This document shows, piece after piece, positions 736-43,910 of a stretch of DNA of 49,584 bases. The number at the start of each line of letters is the position of its first letter. Position 1 is the stretch's first letter. The notes under the pieces were generated by a model. That model had not been told where the DNA came from. It worked only from the letters and a program-made list of their open reading frames with translations, and did no database searches. The position numbers were made by a program, and so were the translations under genes. This DNA comes from Nanobdellota archaeon (GTDB lineage Archaea > Nanobdellota > Nanobdellia > Pacearchaeales > GW2011-AR1): contig JAUSIT010000028.1 of the NCBI GenBank assembly GCA_030647965.1, forward strand, positions 1-49,584. Direction: 5' to 3'.

Positions 736-875
736 TCCCACCGCATCCACAAAACCTTTTAATCTTCTTGAAATTAGTGAGTATATCATGTTGAAAAATC
801 TTAATAAATATCAAGCAGGTAAAACCCTTATTTATCTTGTGCGTCACGGCGAGAGAATACATATTCCTAGAACTC
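736..875 (+). repeat. Direct repeat copy 1 (promoter region + 5' end of histidine phosphatase gene)
   Basis: Aligns with 4501-4641 with about nine differences by eye. Confidence 0.95.
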
Positions 876-973
876 GCCCCTACAGATCATTAGACCATTA
901 CCTTACCCATATTAATATCAAAACAACAGAATGCAAAGCTTTAAATATTACTATCATTATAATGATAGTATGA
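788..973 (+). pseudogene. Truncated 5' duplicate of the histidine phosphatase gene
   Basis: First ~29 aa match 4554..5138 (YLVRHGERIHIP), then unrelated sequence. Confidence 0.85.
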
Positions 974-1610: not shown

Positions 1611-1742
1611 ATCAAAAAAACCCTTTTGATTATTCATATGGTTTTTAGGATGAAGGAAATTCGCTCGAATTTCCTGCCCTGAAAATTAAATCAATTTTCA
1701 GTGATCCAAAATTTAACTAAATGATAAAAAATTTATAGACAT
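1611..1742 (+). repeat. AT-bounded four-hairpin palindromic element
   Basis: ATCAAAAAA...GACAT; hairpins ggaaattc/gaatttcc and ctgaaaatt/aattttcag; collinear with reverse complement of 6039-6159. Confidence 0.8.
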
Positions 1743-2431: not shown

Positions 2432-2511
2432 AAAAAAGCATAACGAACCCTATCTAATTGTCCTGAGCTCAATCCTGAACCGTCATTCGTTCAATAGGAC
2501 TTACTCGTTAT
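2432..2511 (-). ncRNA. Candidate ~80 nt small structured RNA
   Basis: Minus-strand BRE/TATA at 2540-2533, three nested stems, closing T6 tract at 2437-2432. Confidence 0.5.
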
Positions 2512-4500: not shown

Positions 4501-4641
4501 TCCCACCGCATCCCCAAAACCTTTTTAATCTTCTTGAAATTAGTGAGTATATCATGTTAAAACATCCTAATAAATATCAAACAGGTAAAACCATTATTTA
4601 TCTTGTGCGTCACGGTGAGAGAATACATATTCCTGGAACTC
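4501..4641 (+). repeat. Direct repeat copy 2
   Basis: Matches 736-875; belongs to the intact gene. Confidence 0.95.
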
Positions 4642-5138
4642 CCCCACCACATGATTTTGGCTTGAGCAAAAAGGGAATAAAACAAGCCAAAGATGTTGCT
4701 AAGAAATTTGTTAAAATAAAGGAGGAAGTTGATGCTCTTTATACTAGCCCAATGAAAAGAGCATTTGAAACAGCTGTTGAAATTGGTAAGAAAATAAATA
4801 AAAAACCAATAGTTATTAAGGGTTTAGAAGAGATTACTAAAATACTTGAAAAACCTAAACTTTTTAATAAAAACTATTGGGGGCAGAGAATAAAGTTTAG
4901 AAAAAAACAAAAAATATTTAATGAGCTTCTTAAAAATAATAAAGGCAAGGTAATAATCTTAGTAGCTCATGGAAGATTAAATAGGATGCTTCTTGGAAAA
5001 AAGCTTGGGCTTTCGCATAAAGCCAGCAATGTTTTTGATTCACATAACTGCCACATAACTATTGCTAGTTTTAAGGGTCAAAAGTTAGATTATATTCATT
5101 GTGTTAATAGTAAAGAGCTGATTAACATACAAGATTAA
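4554..5138 (+). CDS. Histidine phosphatase (phosphoglycerate mutase-like) family protein
   Basis: LVRHGE, LSKKGIKQA, SPMKRAFETA, LVAHG motifs. Confidence 0.9.
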   Translation: MLKHPNKYQTGKTIIYLVRHGERIHIPGTPPPHDFGLSKKGIKQAKDVAKKFVKIKEEVDALYTSPMKRAFETAVEIGKKINKKPIVIKGLEEITKILEKPKLFNKNYWGQRIKFRKKQKIFNELLKNNKGKVIILVAHGRLNRMLLGKKLGLSHKASNVFDSHNCHITIASFKGQKLDYIHCVNSKELINIQD

Positions 5139-5687: not shown

Positions 5688-6032
5688 ATGAGCGAGAGCC
5701 AATCAAGATATAGTATTGTAGAAAGATTAACTCAAAAGAAACTGGATATTATTTCTCAAAAGTTAGAATTAGCTGAAGATTTAAAACTTAAACAACAGAA
5801 AGTTGAACAATTAAAAAAAGAGATTGAAGATTGGGAAGATGATATTCAGCAAGATATTGAAAGAACAAGAAGATTAAAAAAAAGAGAAACAGAAAAATCT
5901 GAAATTGGAAGTGAAAATGCAAAACAAAGAATGGCGGCAAAAGAAGCTGCACTTGATGAAAAAATTAAAGCAATTGATAAAGCATTAGAAAGAATAGAAG
6001 AAATTAGCAAAACCTCTCCAACAAATCAATAG
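5688..6032 (+). CDS. Coiled-coil hypothetical protein
   Basis: 114 aa, E/K/Q-rich heptad pattern. Confidence 0.7.
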   Translation: MSESQSRYSIVERLTQKKLDIISQKLELAEDLKLKQQKVEQLKKEIEDWEDDIQQDIERTRRLKKRETEKSEIGSENAKQRMAAKEAALDEKIKAIDKALERIEEISKTSPTNQ

Positions 6033-6038
6033 ATTATA

Positions 6039-6159
6039 ATGTCAGAAATGAAAATTTCTGAGCACAAGAAAATCACTGATTTTCTGTGCCGAAAATTCCT
6101 TTATGGAATTTTCTTGCATCCCAAAAACCCAACAATAAAACCAAAGGGGTTTTTATGAT
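6039..6159 (-). repeat. AT-bounded four-hairpin palindromic element
   Basis: Reverse complement ATCATAAAAACCCC...TTTCTGACAT; same module order as 1611-1742. Confidence 0.8.
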
Positions 6160-6318: not shown

Positions 6319-6540
6319 ATGAACATGAAAAGCACAATAAAATATAAAATTGTTAATAAAAAAAGAAGACCTTTATGTGATTACTATGGAACTTGCAAAA
6401 ATCTTGCGTTCAAAGAAGTTTATCCTGATTTAGGAAAAAAGAAAAAAGGTGATGCGGGCTGGAGTTATTTATGTAGAAAACATCTTATGCAGGAACTAAA
6501 AAGATTAAAAGGAAAATTGCCATATTGCAACATAAATTAA
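6319..6540 (+). CDS. Small basic Cys/His (putative Zn-binding) protein
   Basis: CDYYGTC...WSYLCRKH. Confidence 0.6.
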   Translation: MNMKSTIKYKIVNKKRRPLCDYYGTCKNLAFKEVYPDLGKKKKGDAGWSYLCRKHLMQELKRLKGKLPYCNIN

Positions 6541-6590: not shown

Positions 6591-7067
6591 ATGGAAGAGG
6601 ATACAACAAATATAGCCATATTTAATGGAAAAACAATAAGAAGAAAGCTTGTTGGAGATAAATGGTTTTTTTCTGTGATTGATGTAGTTTATGCCCTAAC
6701 AGATAGTACTATTCCTAAAAGATACTGGGCAGATTTAAAGGCAAAATTAATAGAAGAAGGATTTGAAGCGTACGATAAAATCGTACTGTTGAAATTAATA
6801 GCAGAAGATGATAAATTAAGAGAAACGGATTGTGCAGACACAGAAGGCATATTTAGAATAATTCAATCAATTCCCTCCAAAAAGGCAGAGCCATTTAAAA
6901 GATGGCTTGCTAAAATTGGTTACCTCAAAAATCTTCATGAATTTAGATTTCTGATGGTCCAAAAATTCCAAACAAATACTCAAGAATTTTTTGATGAAAG
7001 AATACAGGAGATAGAAAATCCTGAACTTGCACAAGAAAGGATGAAAAATTCAATTGAATTATGTTAG
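6591..7067 (+). pseudogene. Bro-N (phage antirepressor-like) protein, with in-frame insertion and probable C-terminal truncation
   Basis: WFFSVIDVV..LTDS..P.RYW.DLK, ETDCAD...FRIIQSIPSKKAEPFKRWLAK; stops soon after ELAQERMK. Confidence 0.75.
6922..6995 (-). repeat. Two-hairpin element inserted in frame (72 nt) in the Bro-N gene
   Basis: Splits conserved GY|ERIQEIENPE; reverse complement begins ATCAAAAAA. Confidence 0.75.
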
Positions 7068-7104
7068 TTAGTTATCCTCTTTCCAACCCTTAGCCCGCCC
7101 CCAT

Positions 7105-7120
7105 CAATAACCTTTATAAA
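7105..7120 (+). promoter_or_regulatory. BRE/TATA promoter of the ribosomal protein operon
   Basis: caataaccTTTATAAA about 220 nt upstream of rpl3. Confidence 0.55.
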
Positions 7121-7338
7121 GTCTTTTTTTCTCTAGAAACTATCACGAGCTTAGAACTTAACTGTCTAGGCGGTAGAATCCTAAGTTAAGAAACAGAGAA
7201 CAAGTATGGGCGACTGCTAATTGCCTGTTAGTGTTTGAAGTTTGACCATTTGGAAATGTAAATTTCCGAAGATAAAACTATAAATAAATGGAATATTAAT
7301 CCAAAAATAAATAGAAAATAACATAAAAATAATACAAA

Positions 7339-8289
7339 ATGCCACCACATAAAACAAAAGATGGAAGCTTGCAAATCTGGCCTAGAAAAAGGGCAGAAAA
7401 GATTTTACCTGGTGTGAACTGGAAAGAAATTGGCAAGACTTCTAATAAAAAAGGTCTTCAGGGTTTTATTGGATATAAAGTTGGAATGACTTCTGTTTTT
7501 GTTAAAGATAATACAAATCATTCAATGACAAAAGGAAAAAAGATTACTGTTCCTGCAACAATTATTGAATGCCCTGCAATGAAAATTTATTCTGTTAGAT
7601 TTTACAAAGAAGGCGTTGTAGCAAAAGATGTTATTGTTGGCTTTGATGATGAATTAAAAAATAAATTAAAAAAACCAAAAAAAATTGAAGGAAAAATAGA
7701 GGATGAAAAAGATTTTGAGGATGTGAGAATTATTGTTTATTCTAATGTAAAAACAACTAGTGTAAAAAAAACACCTGATTTAATTGAACTTGCTTTGGCT
7801 GGAACAAATGAAGAAAAAATAAAATTCATAAAAGAAAAAATAGGAAAAGAAATTTTTATTTCAGATGTATTTCAAGAAGGATTAGTTGATGTAAGGGGAG
7901 TTACAACAGGTTATGGATTTCAAGGTCCAATGAGAAGATTTGGAATTGGATTAAAAAGCCATAAGTCTGAAAAAGGAAGAAGAAGACCAGGAAGCTTGGC
8001 CCCATGGCATCCAGCAAGAGTAACTTTTAGAACAGCAATGGCAGGACAGACAGGATTTTTCACAAGAATTGTTTATAATAATTTAATATTGCAAATAGGA
8101 AAAATAAAAGATAATAATATTAACCAAAGTGGCGGATTTCATAAATATGGAAATATTAAAACAGACTTTATTATTTTAAGAGGATCTGTACAAGGATCTA
8201 CAAAAAGACCATTATTAATGACTCCTGCAATAAGGCCAACAAAAGAACAATCTAAAAAGAAATTTGAGGTAATTGAATTAAGACCATGA
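7339..8289 (+). CDS. rpl3: 50S ribosomal protein L3 (uL3)
   Basis: GSLQIWPRKRA, GYKVGMT, GFQGPMRRFG, AGQTG. Confidence 0.97.
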   Translation: MPPHKTKDGSLQIWPRKRAEKILPGVNWKEIGKTSNKKGLQGFIGYKVGMTSVFVKDNTNHSMTKGKKITVPATIIECPAMKIYSVRFYKEGVVAKDVIVGFDDELKNKLKKPKKIEGKIEDEKDFEDVRIIVYSNVKTTSVKKTPDLIELALAGTNEEKIKFIKEKIGKEIFISDVFQEGLVDVRGVTTGYGFQGPMRRFGIGLKSHKSEKGRRRPGSLAPWHPARVTFRTAMAGQTGFFTRIVYNNLILQIGKIKDNNINQSGGFHKYGNIKTDFIILRGSVQGSTKRPLLMTPAIRPTKEQSKKKFEVIELRP

Positions 8290-12993: not shown

Positions 12994-13052
12994 ATGAAAA
13001 ATAAAAATTTTTCAAATACTCGCTTGTGGAGGACAAGCTTCGTATAATGAAA
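12994..13052 (+). repeat. Two-hairpin element at the rpl24 start codon
   Basis: 24 nt identical to 15329-15352; bounded by ATGAAA direct repeats. Confidence 0.9.
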
Positions 13053-13538
13053 CAAAAATTCAGTATGAAATGGAGATCAAGCAAGCAACCTCGAAAACAG
13101 AGGAAATTCATAGCAAATGCTCCAATGCATATTAAAAGAAAAATGTTAACAGTTACTCTTGAAAAAGAATTAAGAAAAAAATATGGAAGAAGAAATATTG
13201 AAGTAAGAAAAAATGATGAAGTAAAAATCATGACAGGAAAATTCAAGAAAAAACAAGGAAAAGTTATTGAAGTTAATGTAAAAAAAATGAAAATATATAT
13301 TGAAGGAATACAAATTACAAAAAAAGAAGGAACAAAAGTGGGAGTAGGAATCCATCCTTCAAACCTGAAGATTATTTCATTAAATACAGACGATAAAAAA
13401 AGAATGAAACAAAGAAATGAGAAGAAAACAGGAGAAAAGACTGAAAATAAAAACGAAAAGAAAATGGAAAATAAAATAAAAACAGAAAAAACTCAAACTA
13501 AACAAACTGGAGAACAAAATGCACCTAAAAAGAAATAA
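13047..13538 (+). CDS. rpl24: 50S ribosomal protein L24 (uL24) with K/E-rich C-tail
   Basis: SKQPRKQRK...NAP.H, LRKKYG, IHPSNL; ATG 13047 preferred. Confidence 0.96.
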   Translation: MKQKFSMKWRSSKQPRKQRKFIANAPMHIKRKMLTVTLEKELRKKYGRRNIEVRKNDEVKIMTGKFKKKQGKVIEVNVKKMKIYIEGIQITKKEGTKVGVGIHPSNLKIISLNTDDKKRMKQRNEKKTGEKTENKNEKKMENKIKTEKTQTKQTGEQNAPKKK

Positions 13539-15303: not shown

Positions 15304-15364
15304 ATGAAAATTTCATTAAATTTTCAATTACTCGCTTGTGGAGGACAAGCTTTGTACCATGAAA
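15304..15364 (+). repeat. Two-hairpin element at the rpl6 start codon
   Basis: Second copy of the 12994-13052 element. Confidence 0.9.
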
Positions 15365-15904
15365 CGAGATATTGAAGAAATTATAGAAATCCCAGAAGGC
15401 ATTGAACTTAGTTTGAACAATTTTGAAATAATTGTAAAATCAAAGGGTAAAGAATCAAAAAAAGCATTTGTTTTGCCTAATACAATTAAAATTGTAAAAG
15501 ACAATAAAATATTAAAATTAATTGCAAAAAATTCAACAAAAAGAGAATCAAAACTAATTGGAACAACTGTTGCACATATAGAAAATATGATTAATGGAAT
15601 GAATGAAGAATTTGAATATAAATTAGAAATATGTAATGTACACTTTCCAATGAATGTCAAAGTTGAAGGAAATAGAATGATAATTAAGAATTTTTTAGGC
15701 GAAAAAGTTGACAGAATTGCAAAAATACTGCCTGGAGTTAAAGTAGAAGTTAAAGGAAACAAAGTAGATATAACTTCACATAATAGAGAAGCTGCAGGAC
15801 AAACAGCTGCAAATGTTGAAACAGCAACAAAAGTTAGAGGAAGAGATAGAAGAATTTTCCAAGATGGAATATTTTTAACAGAAAAATGTGGGAGGAAGAT
15901 ATAA
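15359..15904 (+). CDS. rpl6: 50S ribosomal protein L6 (uL6)
   Basis: AHIENMING, HFPM, NFLGEK, GQTAAN, DRRIFQDGI. Confidence 0.97.
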   Translation: MKRDIEEIIEIPEGIELSLNNFEIIVKSKGKESKKAFVLPNTIKIVKDNKILKLIAKNSTKRESKLIGTTVAHIENMINGMNEEFEYKLEICNVHFPMNVKVEGNRMIIKNFLGEKVDRIAKILPGVKVEVKGNKVDITSHNREAAGQTAANVETATKVRGRDRRIFQDGIFLTEKCGRKI

Positions 15905-22103: not shown

Positions 22104-22289
22104 TTGCTGATGAAATGCTGAATTAAATATTCTATTAATGATGCTCGCATAATTTGCACTTCGTTAAGATATTAAGTCGCCTAGCTGCTCCTAACTTTTA
22201 TTAATGATAAATCATTTTCTCATTATTTGATACAGTATTAATTATCCACATTTGCCGCCAGGCAAATCCATTTATCCTTGCATCAGCAA
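22104..22289 (-). repeat. ~200 bp structured dispersed repeat (family A), copy 1
   Basis: Reverse complement attaataaaagttaggagcagctaggcgacttaatatcttaacgaagtgcaaattatgcgagc nearly matches ~28428-28491. Confidence 0.9.
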
Positions 22290-28348: not shown

Positions 28349-28567
28349 GCGTGCTAAGGCAAGATATATGGAATTTCTTAGCAGAAATTACGATTTATTA
28401 ATATTGAAATGAAAATGATTTTAGAGAATTAATAAAAGTCTAGGAGCCGCGAGGCGACTTTATATTCTAACGAAGTGCAAATTATGCGAGCGAGCCGTAG
28501 CGAGCGAAAAAGTTTTGCTCTTCTATCTTGCGTTACTTATGCAAGAGCAAAACTTTTTGAGCATCAG
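28349..28567 (+). repeat. Family A repeat, copy 2, with nested 52 bp hairpin (28507-28558)
   Basis: Shares GGCAAGATATATG..AATTACGATTTATTAATA with the 43.7 kb copy and its 3' half with the 22.1 kb copy. Confidence 0.9.
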
Positions 28568-34991: not shown

Positions 34992-36104
34992 ATGAAAATA
35001 CTAATAACCGGAGCAACAGGATTTATTGGAAGCCATTTAGTTGAAGAGCTGAAAAAAGATAAGAAAAATAGTATAAGATGTCTTGTTTTGAAAAATAGCC
35101 CTATTTTTAAAAAAAATAGAGAAAAAAGAGAATTAGAGCTTAAAAATTTAGGTGTTGAAATATTTTATGGGGATTTACTTGATAAAGATTCTTTAATTAA
35201 TGCACTTAAGGGTGTTGAAAAAGTATATCACTTAGCTGCAATAAGCAGGCCTATGAATGTTGAAAAGCATGTTTATTATGATATTAATGTAATAGGAACA
35301 AAAAATTTATTTGAGGCTTGCAAAATAAAAAAAGTCAAGAAAATAATACATGTTTCTACAATGTCTGTTTTTGGATTTTCAAGAAATGGAAATCCTTTAA
35401 ATGAAAACTCCCCAAAACTTCCTGTAAGTGATTATGGAGAAAGTAAAAAACAGGCAGAGGATTTTGCTTTTGATTTTTGCAAAAAAAATAAAATTCAACT
35501 AGTTGTTATAAGACCTCCAATGGTTTTTGGGCCAAGAGATTTTCAATTTTTAAGATTGTTTAAATTAATTAATACTGGATTTTTTCCTTTATTAAAAAAA
35601 GGAAGAGCAAAATTAGAATTTTGTTATGTTAAAAATTTAGTTAATGGAATAATTCTTGCAGATAAATATGGTAAAAATCTAGAAGCTTATGATATTTCTG
35701 ATGGCCAGACATATACTATAAAAGAAGTTTTTGGAAAAATTGCAGAAGTAGAAGGGAAAAAATTATTTCCTTTTTCTGTTCCTGTTTTTTCTGTAAGAAT
35801 TATAGGATGGATATTTGAAAAAACATATGGCTTATTTGGTAAAAAAGCACCTTTTAATTCAGGAACAGGATTATGGATGAGTAAGGACAATGTAATGGAT
35901 ATTTCAAAAGCTAAAAAAGAGATTAAATATTCAAATAAAATTAATCTTGAAGAAAGTATAAAAGAAACAGTTAAATGGTATCAAAAAAACAATATGCTAC
36001 CTACACCTAAAGGCGGGAATTTAAAAAGCAGTAGCACTTGTTTTTTGGATGATCCGAAATTAAAACCAGTAAATTTCGGACATAAAAGTGAGGGTTTATT
36101 ATGA
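34992..36104 (+). CDS. NAD-dependent epimerase/dehydratase (extended SDR), with C-terminal in-frame insertion
   Basis: TGATGFIG, HLAA, YGESK, RPPMVFGP. Confidence 0.92.
   Translation: MKILITGATGFIGSHLVEELKKDKKNSIRCLVLKNSPIFKKNREKRELELKNLGVEIFYGDLLDKDSLINALKGVEKVYHLAAISRPMNVEKHVYYDINVIGTKNLFEACKIKKVKKIIHVSTMSVFGFSRNGNPLNENSPKLPVSDYGESKKQAEDFAFDFCKKNKIQLVVIRPPMVFGPRDFQFLRLFKLINTGFFPLLKKGRAKLEFCYVKNLVNGIILADKYGKNLEAYDISDGQTYTIKEVFGKIAEVEGKKLFPFSVPVFSVRIIGWIFEKTYGLFGKKAPFNSGTGLWMSKDNVMDISKAKKEIKYSNKINLEESIKETVKWYQKNNMLPTPKGGNLKSSSTCFLDDPKLKPVNFGHKSEGLL
35980..36083 (+). repeat. AT-bounded two-hairpin element inserted in frame (102 nt)
   Basis: ATCAAAAAAA...GGACAT; removal restores WYKSEGLL*. 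Confidence 0.75.
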
Positions 36105-43687: not shown

Positions 43688-43910
43688 TGATGCTCGCTTC
43701 GCTCGCATATGATGTGCCTGATGGCAAGATATATGAAATTTTCTAGCAAAAATTACGATTTATTAATAATTCTGATACAGAATTTCTGGGTAGGATTTTT
43801 ACTAATAAATCGTTAGGAGACGCCAAAAAGTTTTACTCTTACAATAAGTAACGATAATAGAAGAGTAAAACTTTTTCAGTCGACTTAGTATTATCACAAA
43901 GTGCTAAATT
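43688..43910 (+). repeat. Family A repeat, copy 3, with nested 52 bp hairpin (43825-43876)
   Basis: Homologous to the 28.3 kb and 22.1 kb copies. Confidence 0.9.

What the first reader, a model, noticed from the sequence alone, without database searches (positions are those of the whole stretch)
6922..6995. 72 nt palindromic element in frame inside a Bro-N gene
The family-typical WLAKxGYERIQEIENPE is split by LKNLHEFRFLMVQKFQTNTQEFFD. The DNA forms two hairpins (tcaaaaatct/agatttctga and caaaaattc/gaatttttt) and its reverse complement starts ATCAAAAAA like the other copies. The insertion point is a Tyr codon, as in the epimerase case.
Basis: partly seen in the sequence, partly recalled or inferred. 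Interest (0 to 1): 0.7.

Follow-up and report, generated by a model that had tools for sequence, protein, structure and literature searches.

The report
Mobile hairpin repeat translated inside gene
A 72-base, two-hairpin jumping-DNA repeat sits in frame inside a DNA-binding (Bro-N) gene of a tiny DPANN archaeon and is read through as 24 extra amino acids, an archaeal parallel to the palindromic elements found inside Rickettsia genes.

Summary
Nucleotides 6924-6995 are a clean 72-nt, stop-free, in-frame insertion between the Tyr and Glu codons of the conserved WLAKxGY|ERIQEIENPE motif of a Bro-N gene (6591-7067). 23 of 30 aligned homologs lack it exactly.

It is a full-length copy of a dispersed two-hairpin repeat. 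A covariance model built from 12 other genomic copies hits it at 53.5 bits (E 9e-8). That model finds 32 copies in this 0.98-Mb genome and 1-15 copies in 11 of 100 related genomes. The stems covary strongly.

Other copies in the same genome also sit in frame in a YggS-like and a radical-SAM activase gene, and one splits an ADP-ribosylglycohydrolase gene. So the family behaves like Rickettsia palindromic elements.

Seven of the 30 homologs carry the same insert. Three DNA versions show internal frame changes, compensatory stem changes and near-zero synonymous change. The constraint is therefore on nucleotides plus an open frame, not on the peptide.

Insert carriers are scattered on the gene tree (AU p 0.002).

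The transposition mechanism is unresolved. It looks IS200/IS605- or PATE-like, but no matching transposase ends were found.

This scan had already noted the same repeat family on other DNA of this genome.

The parts
6591..7067 (+). Host gene. A short Bro-N domain protein of 158 aa. It is truncated relative to ~275-aa DinD-like homologs.
   Evidence: ORF. Pfam Bro-N E 1.7e-7, residues 21-107. Full-length homologs run on for ~140 aa more. No C-terminal half was found elsewhere in the genome. dN/dS is 0.155 against the L189 copy over 111 codons. AF2 pLDDT is about 88-91 over most of residues 11-110 (77-80 for 51-70, 72 for 1-10) and 41-57 afterwards.
6924..6995 (+). Net 72-nt in-frame insertion (24 codons, LKNLHEFRFLMVQKFQTNTQEFFD). 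Because TAC and TAT are synonymous, the boundaries could be slid 1-2 nt to the left.
   Evidence: Clean gap in 23 of 30 homologs. Contigs of other organisms join 6921 to 6994, skipping 72 nt.
6920..6995 (+). Full-length match to the two-hairpin repeat family. It includes the host TTAC, which corresponds to the family's left tetranucleotide.
   Evidence: Model R1, built without this copy: 53.5 bits, E 9.3e-8, model positions 1-85 of 85.
6922..6958 (+). Hairpin 1. Foot ACC-TCA / TGA-(T)-GGT, inner stem AAATCT/AGATTT, loop 6935-6944.
   Evidence: DNA minimum-energy fold. The L189 copy gives the same fold, with inner stem CT/AG replaced by GC/GC.
6961..6991 (+). Hairpin 2. Stem CAAAAATT/AATTTTTG in the fold (one nt offset from the AAAAATTC/GAATTTTT register used elsewhere in this report), loop 6969-6983.
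   Evidence: DNA fold. The stem is AAAAAACC/GGTTTTTT in L233 and AGAAAACC/GGTTTTTT in L189.
6084..6159 (+). Another copy of the same repeat family, in the gap between ORFs 5688-6032 and 6319-6540.
   Evidence: R1 48.5 bits, E 7.7e-7. HMM E 4.6e-9.
35980..36085 (-). Another copy, antisense to the gene. It forms the 3' end of the epimerase-like ORF 34992-36104 and supplies its last ~40 codons.
   Evidence: R1 41.4 bits, E 1.6e-5. ORF and sequence.
1611..1682 (-). Another copy of the family.
   Evidence: R1 37.5 bits, E 8.3e-5. HMM E 1.4e-6.

Best explanation
What it is. The 72 nt are a copy of a small non-coding mobile element. The family runs about 62-125 nt and has two hairpins, with consensus roughly T(T/G)AT|GTCAGAAATg..loop..cATTTCTGAGCATCC-AAAAAyCC..loop..GGrTTTTTyTGAT.

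Where it landed. The copy lies immediately after GGTTAY, between the Tyr and Glu codons of the conserved GY|ERIQEIENPE motif. That is just behind the folded Bro-N domain.

Consequence for the gene. The net gain is a multiple of three and has no stop in the gene's frame, so the gene stayed open. The element is read through as 24 extra residues in a poorly ordered linker. This is inferred from the open frame and purifying selection; there are no RNA or protein data.

Family behaviour. The same thing happened to several other genes in this gene-dense genome. Only in-frame, tolerated insertions into needed genes survive selection, as with Rickettsia palindromic elements.

After insertion. The hairpins have been kept by compensatory changes while the frame was kept open. 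The copy is thus under a double constraint, on nucleotide structure and on the ORF.

History. Its history differs from that of the N-terminal domain. That points either to repeated insertion into this same TTAY|GA site or to short-tract recombination between Bro-N paralogs.

How it moves is inferred only. The most likely route is as single-stranded DNA recognised through its hairpins by a transposase supplied in trans (IS200/IS605 TnpA-like, as for PATEs). I give about 0.35 to that sub-claim.
For: Family membership
- HMM without this copy: E 8.7e-7.
- Covariance model without this copy: 53.5 bits, full length. The L189 insert scores 56.8 bits.

Multi-copy and patchy distribution
- 32 matches in the own genome at E <= 1e-4.
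- 11 of 100 other genomes of the order have 1-15 copies.
- 6 copies in the genome that holds L189.

Hairpins are conserved as structure
- On 31 aligned copies, 93.1% of cells pair against 78.6% in shuffles.
- 16 of 21 pairs have changes on both sides.
- Covariation score is 0.429 against 0.171; 0 of 500 shuffles reach it. Slid controls give 0.036-0.069. The alignment was fitted to the model.

In-frame insertions elsewhere in the same genome
- YggS-like gene: about 29 extra aa against 2 homologs.
- Radical-SAM activase: at least five relatives' genes match query residues 1-~138 and 177-270 in two pieces that lie a few bases apart or overlap in the subject.
- ADP-ribosylglycohydrolase: split exactly at model hit C13:20179-20296.
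- 7 of 32 copies lie in read-through ORFs.
- 39 of 192 frames are open, against a shuffle mean of 20.05, sd 4.07, max 32.

The host gene is under selection
- dN/dS 0.155 with dS 1.07.
- All 9 insert-bearing homologs seen keep the frame through to ERIQEI...
- L189 keeps it through a compensated -2/+2 indel pair.

Nucleotide-level constraint
- Window against L233: 1 difference in the 42 nt covering hairpin 1, against 19 of 50 flanking third positions.
- 4 stem pairs changed on both sides among the three DNA versions.

Position in the protein
- The insert lies after the confident Bro-N fold: pLDDT about 88-91 over most of residues 11-110, then 41-57 afterwards.

Target
- Empty Bro-N sites end the Tyr codon with TTAT in 74 and TTAC in 8 of 193 sites in the fetched loci.
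- That matches the family's commonest left tetranucleotide, TTAT, in 10 of 31 copies.
Against: - No RNA or protein data exist for this organism, and no RNA run was listed. Translation of the insert is therefore inferred.
- The hairpins' folding energy is no better than that of shuffled sequence: z -0.57, -0.58 and -0.32.
- No Y1 transposase gene was found in the own genome, which is 85% complete. TnpB-type matches there are only sub-threshold.
- Y1 transposase genes occur in 3 of 5 element-rich genomes. Their three intact loci show no family-like ends.
- The only adjacency is one 28.8-bit hit, 38 nt from a truncated tnpA.
- The ends also look like short inverted repeats (TCAGAAA...TTTCTGA), which fits a classical MITE rather than a PATE.
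- The host gene is truncated after the insert. The selective value of the downstream 23 codons is uncertain.
- The high conservation of hairpin 1 could reflect recent transfer rather than constraint.
- Only three DNA versions of the Bro-N insert were available.
Confidence: 0.85

Rival explanations
1. An ordinary lineage-specific protein insertion: a loop or linker that arose in a subclade of Bro-N proteins and is conserved because the peptide matters. It would have no connection to mobile DNA.
For: 7 of 30 close homologs share a similar 24-25 aa segment at the same place, with conservative changes such as K/R, H/Y and V/A/F. All of them stay in frame.
Against: - The nucleotides match a non-coding repeat family modelled without them: E 9.3e-8 full length, E 8.7e-7.
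- L189 reads the conserved core in a different frame.
- Stems change by compensatory pairs, and there is no synonymous change across the 14 codons of the hairpin-1 part, while flanks differ at 38% of third positions.
- Carriers are not one clade on the N-terminal tree (AU p 0.0019).
Confidence: 0.04
2. An intervening sequence removed from the RNA: an archaeal bulge-helix-bulge intron cut by the tRNA splicing endonuclease, or another form of RNA excision. The protein would then lack the 24 aa.
For: - Precise in-frame interruptions of highly conserved motifs: GY|ER here, and just before the HxIGxLQxNK motif in YggS.
- Strong structure conservation.
- That DPANN archaea are known for split and permuted genes is from my own knowledge.
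Against: - The predicted folds place both junctions at the base of ordinary hairpins. There are no two 3-nt bulges separated by a 4-bp helix. I also tried to pair exon and intron ends by hand and found no such motif.
- All 9 versions keep an open frame of 72, 75 or 123 nt, and one does so through compensated indels. An intron would not need this.
- Many copies are intergenic.
Confidence: 0.03
3. On the history rather than the nature of the insert: one ancient insertion, inherited and then spread among Bro-N paralogs by homologous recombination or gene conversion, rather than repeated targeted insertion.
For: - The three DNA versions share derived features found in no other aligned copy: foot ACC..GGT, bulged T and left TTAC, in 3 of 31 copies, all in Bro-N.
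- Bro-N genes are multi-copy in these genomes, up to 7 matches in one genome. The genome holding L189 has two carriers plus insert-free paralogs.
- Carriers share short truncated tails.
Against: - Differences lie within 9 nt upstream and 15 nt downstream of the insert, so any conversion tract would have to be almost exactly the insert.
- A second, longer and more canonical family insert (P0070, 41 aa, starting VRNV) occupies the same site. That suggests the site can be hit more than once.
- The site offers the family's commonest left tetranucleotide, TTAT.
Confidence: 0.45

Closest known systems
Rickettsia palindromic elements (RPEs; Ogata et al. 2000, as summarised in the review PMC10969869, of which I read passages)
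   Same: Short palindromic repeats in a reduced, gene-dense genome. They are repeatedly found inside unrelated protein genes in frame, so the host ORF stays open and gains a peptide segment. About a fifth to a half of copies are intragenic.
   Different: - Host: archaeal (DPANN), not alpha-proteobacterial.
- Size: about 62-125 nt, against ~150 bp as stated in that review.
- Frame: there is no single conserved peptide. The same DNA is read in at least three frames (HFGASQNP.., ISEHPKNP.., RFLMVQKF..).
- Sequence relatedness to RPEs was not tested.
PATEs, including 52-bp 'terminal-only' derivatives of IS605-type transposons in Haloquadratum walsbyi (PMC3119063, passages read)
   Same: Tiny transposase-free archaeal repeats made essentially of two near-terminal palindromes. 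There is no evident target duplication. They are heterogeneous in sequence but keep short terminal oligonucleotides.
   Different: - No autonomous IS with matching ends was found.
- No TnpA gene is present in the own genome.
- The ends here also resemble short inverted repeats.
- The passages I read do not describe an in-frame intragenic habit for PATEs.
Classical prokaryotic MITEs (terminal inverted repeats plus target-site duplication)
   Same: Small, non-coding, multi-copy and patchy among relatives. The ends TCAGAAA...TTTCTGA are inverted copies of each other. High MITE densities have been reported for a Woesearchaea genome (PMC11602168, passage read).
   Different: - No consistent target duplication beyond a possible AT.
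- Internal stems covary, so structure rather than only the termini is conserved.
- That census reports 88.9% of archaeal MITEs as intergenic.
BRO / Bro-N, DinD-like 'phage antirepressor' proteins (the host gene)
   Same: An N-terminal Bro-N domain above the Pfam threshold, and the conserved WLAKxGYERIQEIENPE segment.
   Different: The protein is truncated after ERMK, so it has 158 aa against ~275. It also carries the 24-aa insert.

Membership tests
The two-hairpin repeat family of this genome (model R1) | Full-length match to a model built without the candidate | tested here: met
   53.5 bits, E 9.3e-8, model positions 1-85 of 85. HMM E 8.7e-7.
The two-hairpin repeat family of this genome (model R1) | Both hairpins form at the modelled positions | tested here: met
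   The DNA minimum-energy fold gives both hairpins. There is only one non-standard pair (A.C) in the model alignment.
Mobile element in general | Many dispersed copies, with patchy presence among relatives | tested here: met
   32 copies in the own genome. 11 of 100 other genomes have 1-15 copies.
Mobile element in general | Filled and empty sites for the same locus | tested here: met
   23 of 30 homologs have the empty site. The empty-site joint 6921->6994 appears in contigs of two runs, X1 and X4. These are homologous genes of other organisms, not alleles of one population.
Classical MITE | Terminal inverted repeats | tested here: inconclusive
   Left GTCAGAAA and right TTTCTGAT share a 7-nt inverted core, seen by inspection. 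The same core is also the 3' arm of hairpin 1.
Classical MITE | Target-site duplication | tested here: inconclusive
   No consistent direct repeat flanks the copies beyond AT. A 2-nt AT duplication cannot be excluded.
PATE / IS200-IS605-derived element | Subterminal palindromes at both ends and no target duplication | tested here: met
   Two covarying hairpins fill the element. No clear duplication was seen.
PATE / IS200-IS605-derived element | Insertion 3' of a fixed tetra- or pentanucleotide | tested here: inconclusive
   The left tetranucleotide is TTAT in 10, TGAT in 3 and TTAC in 3 of 31 copies, with other sequences in 15. In Bro-N the TTAY is host sequence.
PATE / IS200-IS605-derived element | Ends similar to those of an autonomous IS with TnpA/TnpB | tested here: not met
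   Three intact tnpA loci (L250-L252) have no R1 match better than E 0.69 and no close end motifs. One 28.8-bit hit lies beside a truncated tnpA.
PATE / IS200-IS605-derived element | A Y1 transposase available in the genome | tested here: not met
   PF01797 gave 0 matches in the own genome, which is 85% complete. It is present in 3 of 5 other element-rich genomes.
Rickettsia palindromic elements | Palindromic repeat inserted in frame in unrelated protein genes, leaving ORFs open | tested here: met
   Bro-N, YggS-like and radical-SAM activase. 7 of 32 copies lie in read-through ORFs. This shows similar behaviour, not membership of the RPE sequence families.
Rickettsia palindromic elements | Sequence homology to RPE-1 to RPE-10 | not tested
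   No RPE sequences were on hand. Different domain of life.
Archaeal BHB intron | Two 3-nt bulges separated by a 4-bp helix at the junctions | tested here: not met
   The folds show plain hairpins with 1-nt bulges. My manual pairing of the junctions found none.
Archaeal BHB intron | Spliced RNA | not testable with these tools
   No RNA run holds the locus.
Bro-N domain proteins (host gene) | Pfam PF02498 above the gathering score | tested here: met
   32.2 bits against a cut-off of 25.6.

The most novel reading that the evidence does not exclude
DPANN archaea may carry an RPE-like system of their own. It would be a structure-conserved hairpin element that colonises essential and accessory genes in frame and is translated.

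One sub-lineage, with foot ACC..GGT matching a TTAC flank, may have specialised on the conserved GGTTAY|GAR site of Bro-N genes. It would re-insert there repeatedly, like a homing element without an endonuclease gene. Its flank-pairing foot would act as the target guide, and both the hairpins and the reading frame would stay under selection.
Probability: 0.25. Interest if true: 0.7.

Novelty: new member of a known kind. Interest (0 to 1): 0.5.

Why it matters
This is an archaeal counterpart of the classic Rickettsia case. In a very small, gene-dense genome, a selfish hairpin repeat survives inside genes by being readable, and so adds new peptide segments to conserved proteins.

The Bro-N copy is informative for four reasons:
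- It has persisted across genes that differ by about one substitution per synonymous site.
- It keeps both its hairpins and an open frame.
- A second version of the family occupies the same site.
- It is scattered on the gene tree.

Together these make target choice and in-gene persistence of such elements directly testable.

There is also a practical point. These inserts inflate and distort protein predictions in DPANN metagenome bins. BLASTN misses them, but a covariance model finds them.

Tried and rejected
- BLAST-type search of the own genome with the 88 nt: no second copy. The family surfaced only with profile searches.
- Rfam: nothing at the locus at gathering scores. Only sub-threshold chance matches appeared in E-value mode.
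Of 160 loci, only L189 carried the insert.
- Junction pattern search: 0 of 400 other genomes of the family. It gave 13 chance hits in viral contigs, none of them Bro-N.
- No RNA holder was listed among the sequencing runs, so expression and splicing could not be examined.
- The laid DNA contigs showed insert-free homologs of other organisms and a few insert-bearing variants. They showed no empty-site allele of this organism.
- C-terminal half of the DinD-like protein: not found elsewhere in the genome, so this is not a split gene.
- PDB sequence searches for the Bro-N protein and for the Fic-like protein: nothing useful. The Fic/Doc case rests on a sub-threshold Pfam hit (22.5 against 24 bits) plus a motif I recalled, so I do not count it as verified.
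- Search for family-like ends around tnpA genes: negative for intact copies.
- Downstream region 7040-7340: unique in the genome.
- Literature searches for DPANN or archaeal in-frame MITEs (passages read in PMC11602168 and PMC13343696): no description found.
- One script call returned no answer. I repeated it in reduced form.

Full report
**The observation**

Window 6591-7067 (+) is a 158-aa ORF. Residues 21-107 match the Pfam Bro-N domain: 32.2 bits against a cut-off of 25.6. Its sequence reads ...KRWLAKIGY-LKNLHEFRFLMVQKFQTNTQEFFD-ERIQEIENPELAQERMK....

A protein search returned 7982 relatives with E <= 0.001 among 8000 scored candidates, and 120 were listed. I aligned the window protein with 30 of them.
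- 23 of the 30 have a clean gap exactly between GY and ER. The net insertion is therefore 6924-6995, 72 nt.
- 7 of the 30 (P0002, P0003, P0004, P0005, P0010, P0013, P0021) carry a related 24-25 aa segment at the same place.

Among all 120 listed proteins, my pattern flagged 15. On inspection:
- 8, including the window's own protein, carry this insert.
- One, P0070, carries a longer 41-aa version.
- 6 are insert-free proteins with variant residues.
- 6 further proteins lacked the anchor motif and were not scored.

The energy is no better than that of shuffled sequence: z -0.57 as DNA, and -0.32 as RNA with flanks. Stability alone is no argument.

**What it is**

A BLAST-type search of the window's own genome (0.98 Mb, 45 contigs, 85% complete) found no second copy. 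Profile searches did.
- A two-sequence HMM of the window insert and its counterpart in locus L189 picked up weak full-length hits. When aligned, these showed a common architecture.
- An HMM of 15 such copies, built without the Bro-N insert, hits 6940-6998 at E 8.7e-7. It also hits three other places in the window and 38 places in the genome at E < 1e-3.
- A covariance model (R1; 12 genomic copies, Bro-N insert not included; 85 positions, 21 base pairs) matches 6920-6995 over its full length at 53.5 bits, E 9.3e-8.
- R1 also matches the L189 insert at 56.8 bits, and window 6084-6159 (+), 35980-36085 (-) and 1611-1682 (-).

R1 finds 32 copies in this genome at E <= 1e-4. It finds 1-15 copies in 11 of 100 other genomes sampled from the same order, and 6 in the genome that holds L189.

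On 31 copies aligned to the model:
- 93.1% of cells form standard pairs, against 78.6% in shuffles.
- 16 of 21 pairs show changes on both sides.
- The covariation score is 0.429, against 0.171 in shuffles. 0 of 500 shuffles reach it.
- Structures slid by 1-3 columns score 0.036-0.069.

The caveat is that this alignment was fitted to the model. The insert is thus a full-length member of a multi-copy, patchily distributed, structure-conserved repeat family. That is a small non-autonomous mobile element.

**It is not an isolated case**

In the same genome other copies lie in frame inside recognisable genes.
- A YggS-like PLP protein has about 29 extra residues just before its HxIGxLQxNK motif, relative to two homologs from related genomes.
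- A radical-SAM activase has about 38 extra residues. For at least five relatives the search reports the gene in two pieces, query residues 1-~138 and 177-270, which lie a few bases apart or overlap in the subject.
- The ADP-ribosylglycohydrolase gene is split exactly at R1 hit C13:20179-20296.
- In the window, a copy supplies the last ~40 codons of the epimerase-like ORF.

By a simple rule, 7 of 32 copies lie in read-through ORFs. The rule asks for at least 30 codons after an ATG before the copy and at least 8 codons after it.

The copies hold 39 open frames of 192. Shuffles of the same sequences give a mean of 20.05 (sd 4.07, max 32 in 200). Random genomic windows give 46.9.

A Fic/Doc-like ORF also seems split within its motif. 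That case rests on a sub-threshold Pfam hit and a motif I recalled, and a PDB search gave nothing. I do not count it.

**Why the shared insert in homologs is not protein-level conservation**

I obtained DNA for three versions:
- the window, 72 nt;
- L189, 72 nt;
- L233, 75 nt, from the same genome as L189.

L189 keeps the nucleotides ATTTCTGATGGTCCA but reads them in another frame. A 2-nt loss before them and a 2-nt gain after them restore the frame.

Among the three versions, four stem pairs differ on both sides:
- The hairpin 1 inner stem is CT/AG in two versions and GC/GC in the third.
- The hairpin 2 stem is AAAAAACC/GGTTTTTT in L233, where the window has AAAAATTC/GAATTTTT; the two differ at two of the eight pairs, each changed on both sides.

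Between the window and L233, the 42 nt covering hairpin 1 differ at one position and show no synonymous change. The flanking third codon positions differ at 14 of 33 upstream and 5 of 17 downstream.

The N-terminal 111 codons of the window and L189 genes give dS 1.07, dN 0.167 and dN/dS 0.155. So the host genes are under purifying selection and are long diverged, yet the insert is 53 of 75 columns identical.

All nine carriers keep the frame through to ERIQEI.... The constraint is on nucleotides (structure or recognition) plus an open frame, not on the peptide.

**Position in the protein**

An AlphaFold2 model built on the 31-row alignment gives pLDDT about 88-91 over most of residues 11-110 (77-80 for 51-70, 72 for 1-10). 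The insert and tail score 41-57. The insert sits behind the folded domain, where an extra linker is likely to be tolerated.

The gene is also truncated relative to ~275-aa homologs. The missing half is not elsewhere in the genome. Many insert-free homologs are similarly short.

**History**

I built a tree from the N-terminal 112 residues of 114 proteins. The nine carriers need 8 changes on it, and well-supported branches force at least 4.

An AU test rejects a single clade of the eight LRNL-type carriers: delta lnL 134.8, p 0.0019. I defined the group by the insert, but I ran the test after seeing the tree.

The three DNA versions share a foot (ACC..GGT with a left TTAC) seen in no other of the 31 aligned copies. 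They therefore form one sub-lineage of the element.

Differences lie within 9 nt upstream and 15 nt downstream of the insert. P0070 has a more canonical family insert at the same site.

Insert-free Bro-N sites end the Tyr codon with TTAT in 74 and TTAC in 8 of 193 sites in the fetched loci. Some loci are duplicates between collections. TTAT is the family's commonest left tetranucleotide, in 10 of 31 copies.

I cannot decide between repeated insertion into this site and short-tract recombination among paralogs.

Laid contigs of four metagenome runs showed abundant insert-free homologs and some insert-bearing variants. They showed no empty allele of this organism.

**How it moves**

Features that resemble IS200/IS605-derived PATEs (definition read in PMC3119063):
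- two subterminal, covarying hairpins;
- no clear target duplication;
- a semi-conserved flank tetranucleotide.

Evidence against that link:
- The own genome has no Y1 transposase and only sub-threshold TnpB-type matches.
- Y1 genes occur in 3 of 5 element-rich genomes, but their intact loci lack family-like ends.
- Only one weak hit lies beside a truncated tnpA.
- The ends also resemble short inverted repeats.

The mechanism is therefore inferred and open.

**Comparison and novelty**

In behaviour the family matches Rickettsia palindromic elements: in-frame insertion into unrelated genes of a reduced genome (review PMC10969869, passages read).

A MITE census reports high densities in a Woesearchaea genome and mostly intergenic positions in archaea (PMC11602168, passages read).

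My searches found no description of in-frame hairpin repeats in DPANN archaea.

Earlier notes of this scan had already flagged the same family on other contigs of this genome. I confirmed the link for the ARH case.

I class the finding as a new member of a known kind, with a more novel possibility: a site-specialised, frame-compatible sub-lineage in Bro-N genes.

Noticed in passing
window 22143-22193 (-), 28441-28491 (+), 28358-28403 and 43723-43768: A different repeat family. It shows a 51-nt inverted pair at 90% and a 46-nt direct pair at 91%, each followed by a long AAAAAGTTTTGCTCTT...AAGAGCAAAACTTTTT hairpin (28504-28557; similar at 43826-43877).
   Followed up: no
window 2441-2510 (-): Rfam DUF3800-X RNA, 58.4 bits against a gathering score of 38.2.
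   Followed up: no
window 751-879 and 4517-4645; 13006-13053 and 15318-15365: A 129-nt direct repeat at 92% identity and a 48-nt direct repeat at 90%. Their nature was not examined.
   Followed up: no
window 7068-7338: A slightly GC-richer non-coding stretch between the Bro-N stop and rpl3. It is unique in the genome. Part of it (7103-7252) is conserved in a contig of another groundwater run, with 7 differences. No Rfam match.
   Followed up: partly
P0070 (protein only): A second, longer (41-aa) and more canonical version of the same repeat family occupies the identical GY|ER site of another Bro-N gene. Its DNA could not be fetched.
   Followed up: partly
L189 2686-3120 and 3122-3988; L233 1420-1676 (-): One Woesearchaeota-labelled genome holds two insert-bearing truncated Bro-N genes. 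One of them abuts a full-length insert-free paralog. The genome also has further insert-free copies in L133 and L171.
   Followed up: partly
own genome C13:46278-46368, C30:18080-18194, C13:20179-20296, C39:16499-16607, C40:4694-4778, C20:10529-10595, C34:58142-58247: Copies of the repeat lie inside ORFs: YggS-like, radical-SAM activase, ADP-ribosylglycohydrolase, a Fic-like ORF and three unnamed ORFs. The first three were checked against homologs or Pfam.
   Followed up: partly
L253 1480-1842: In a related genome a family-like two-hairpin unit (28.8 bits) lies 38 nt from the start of a truncated IS200-type tnpA, on the opposite strand.
   Followed up: partly
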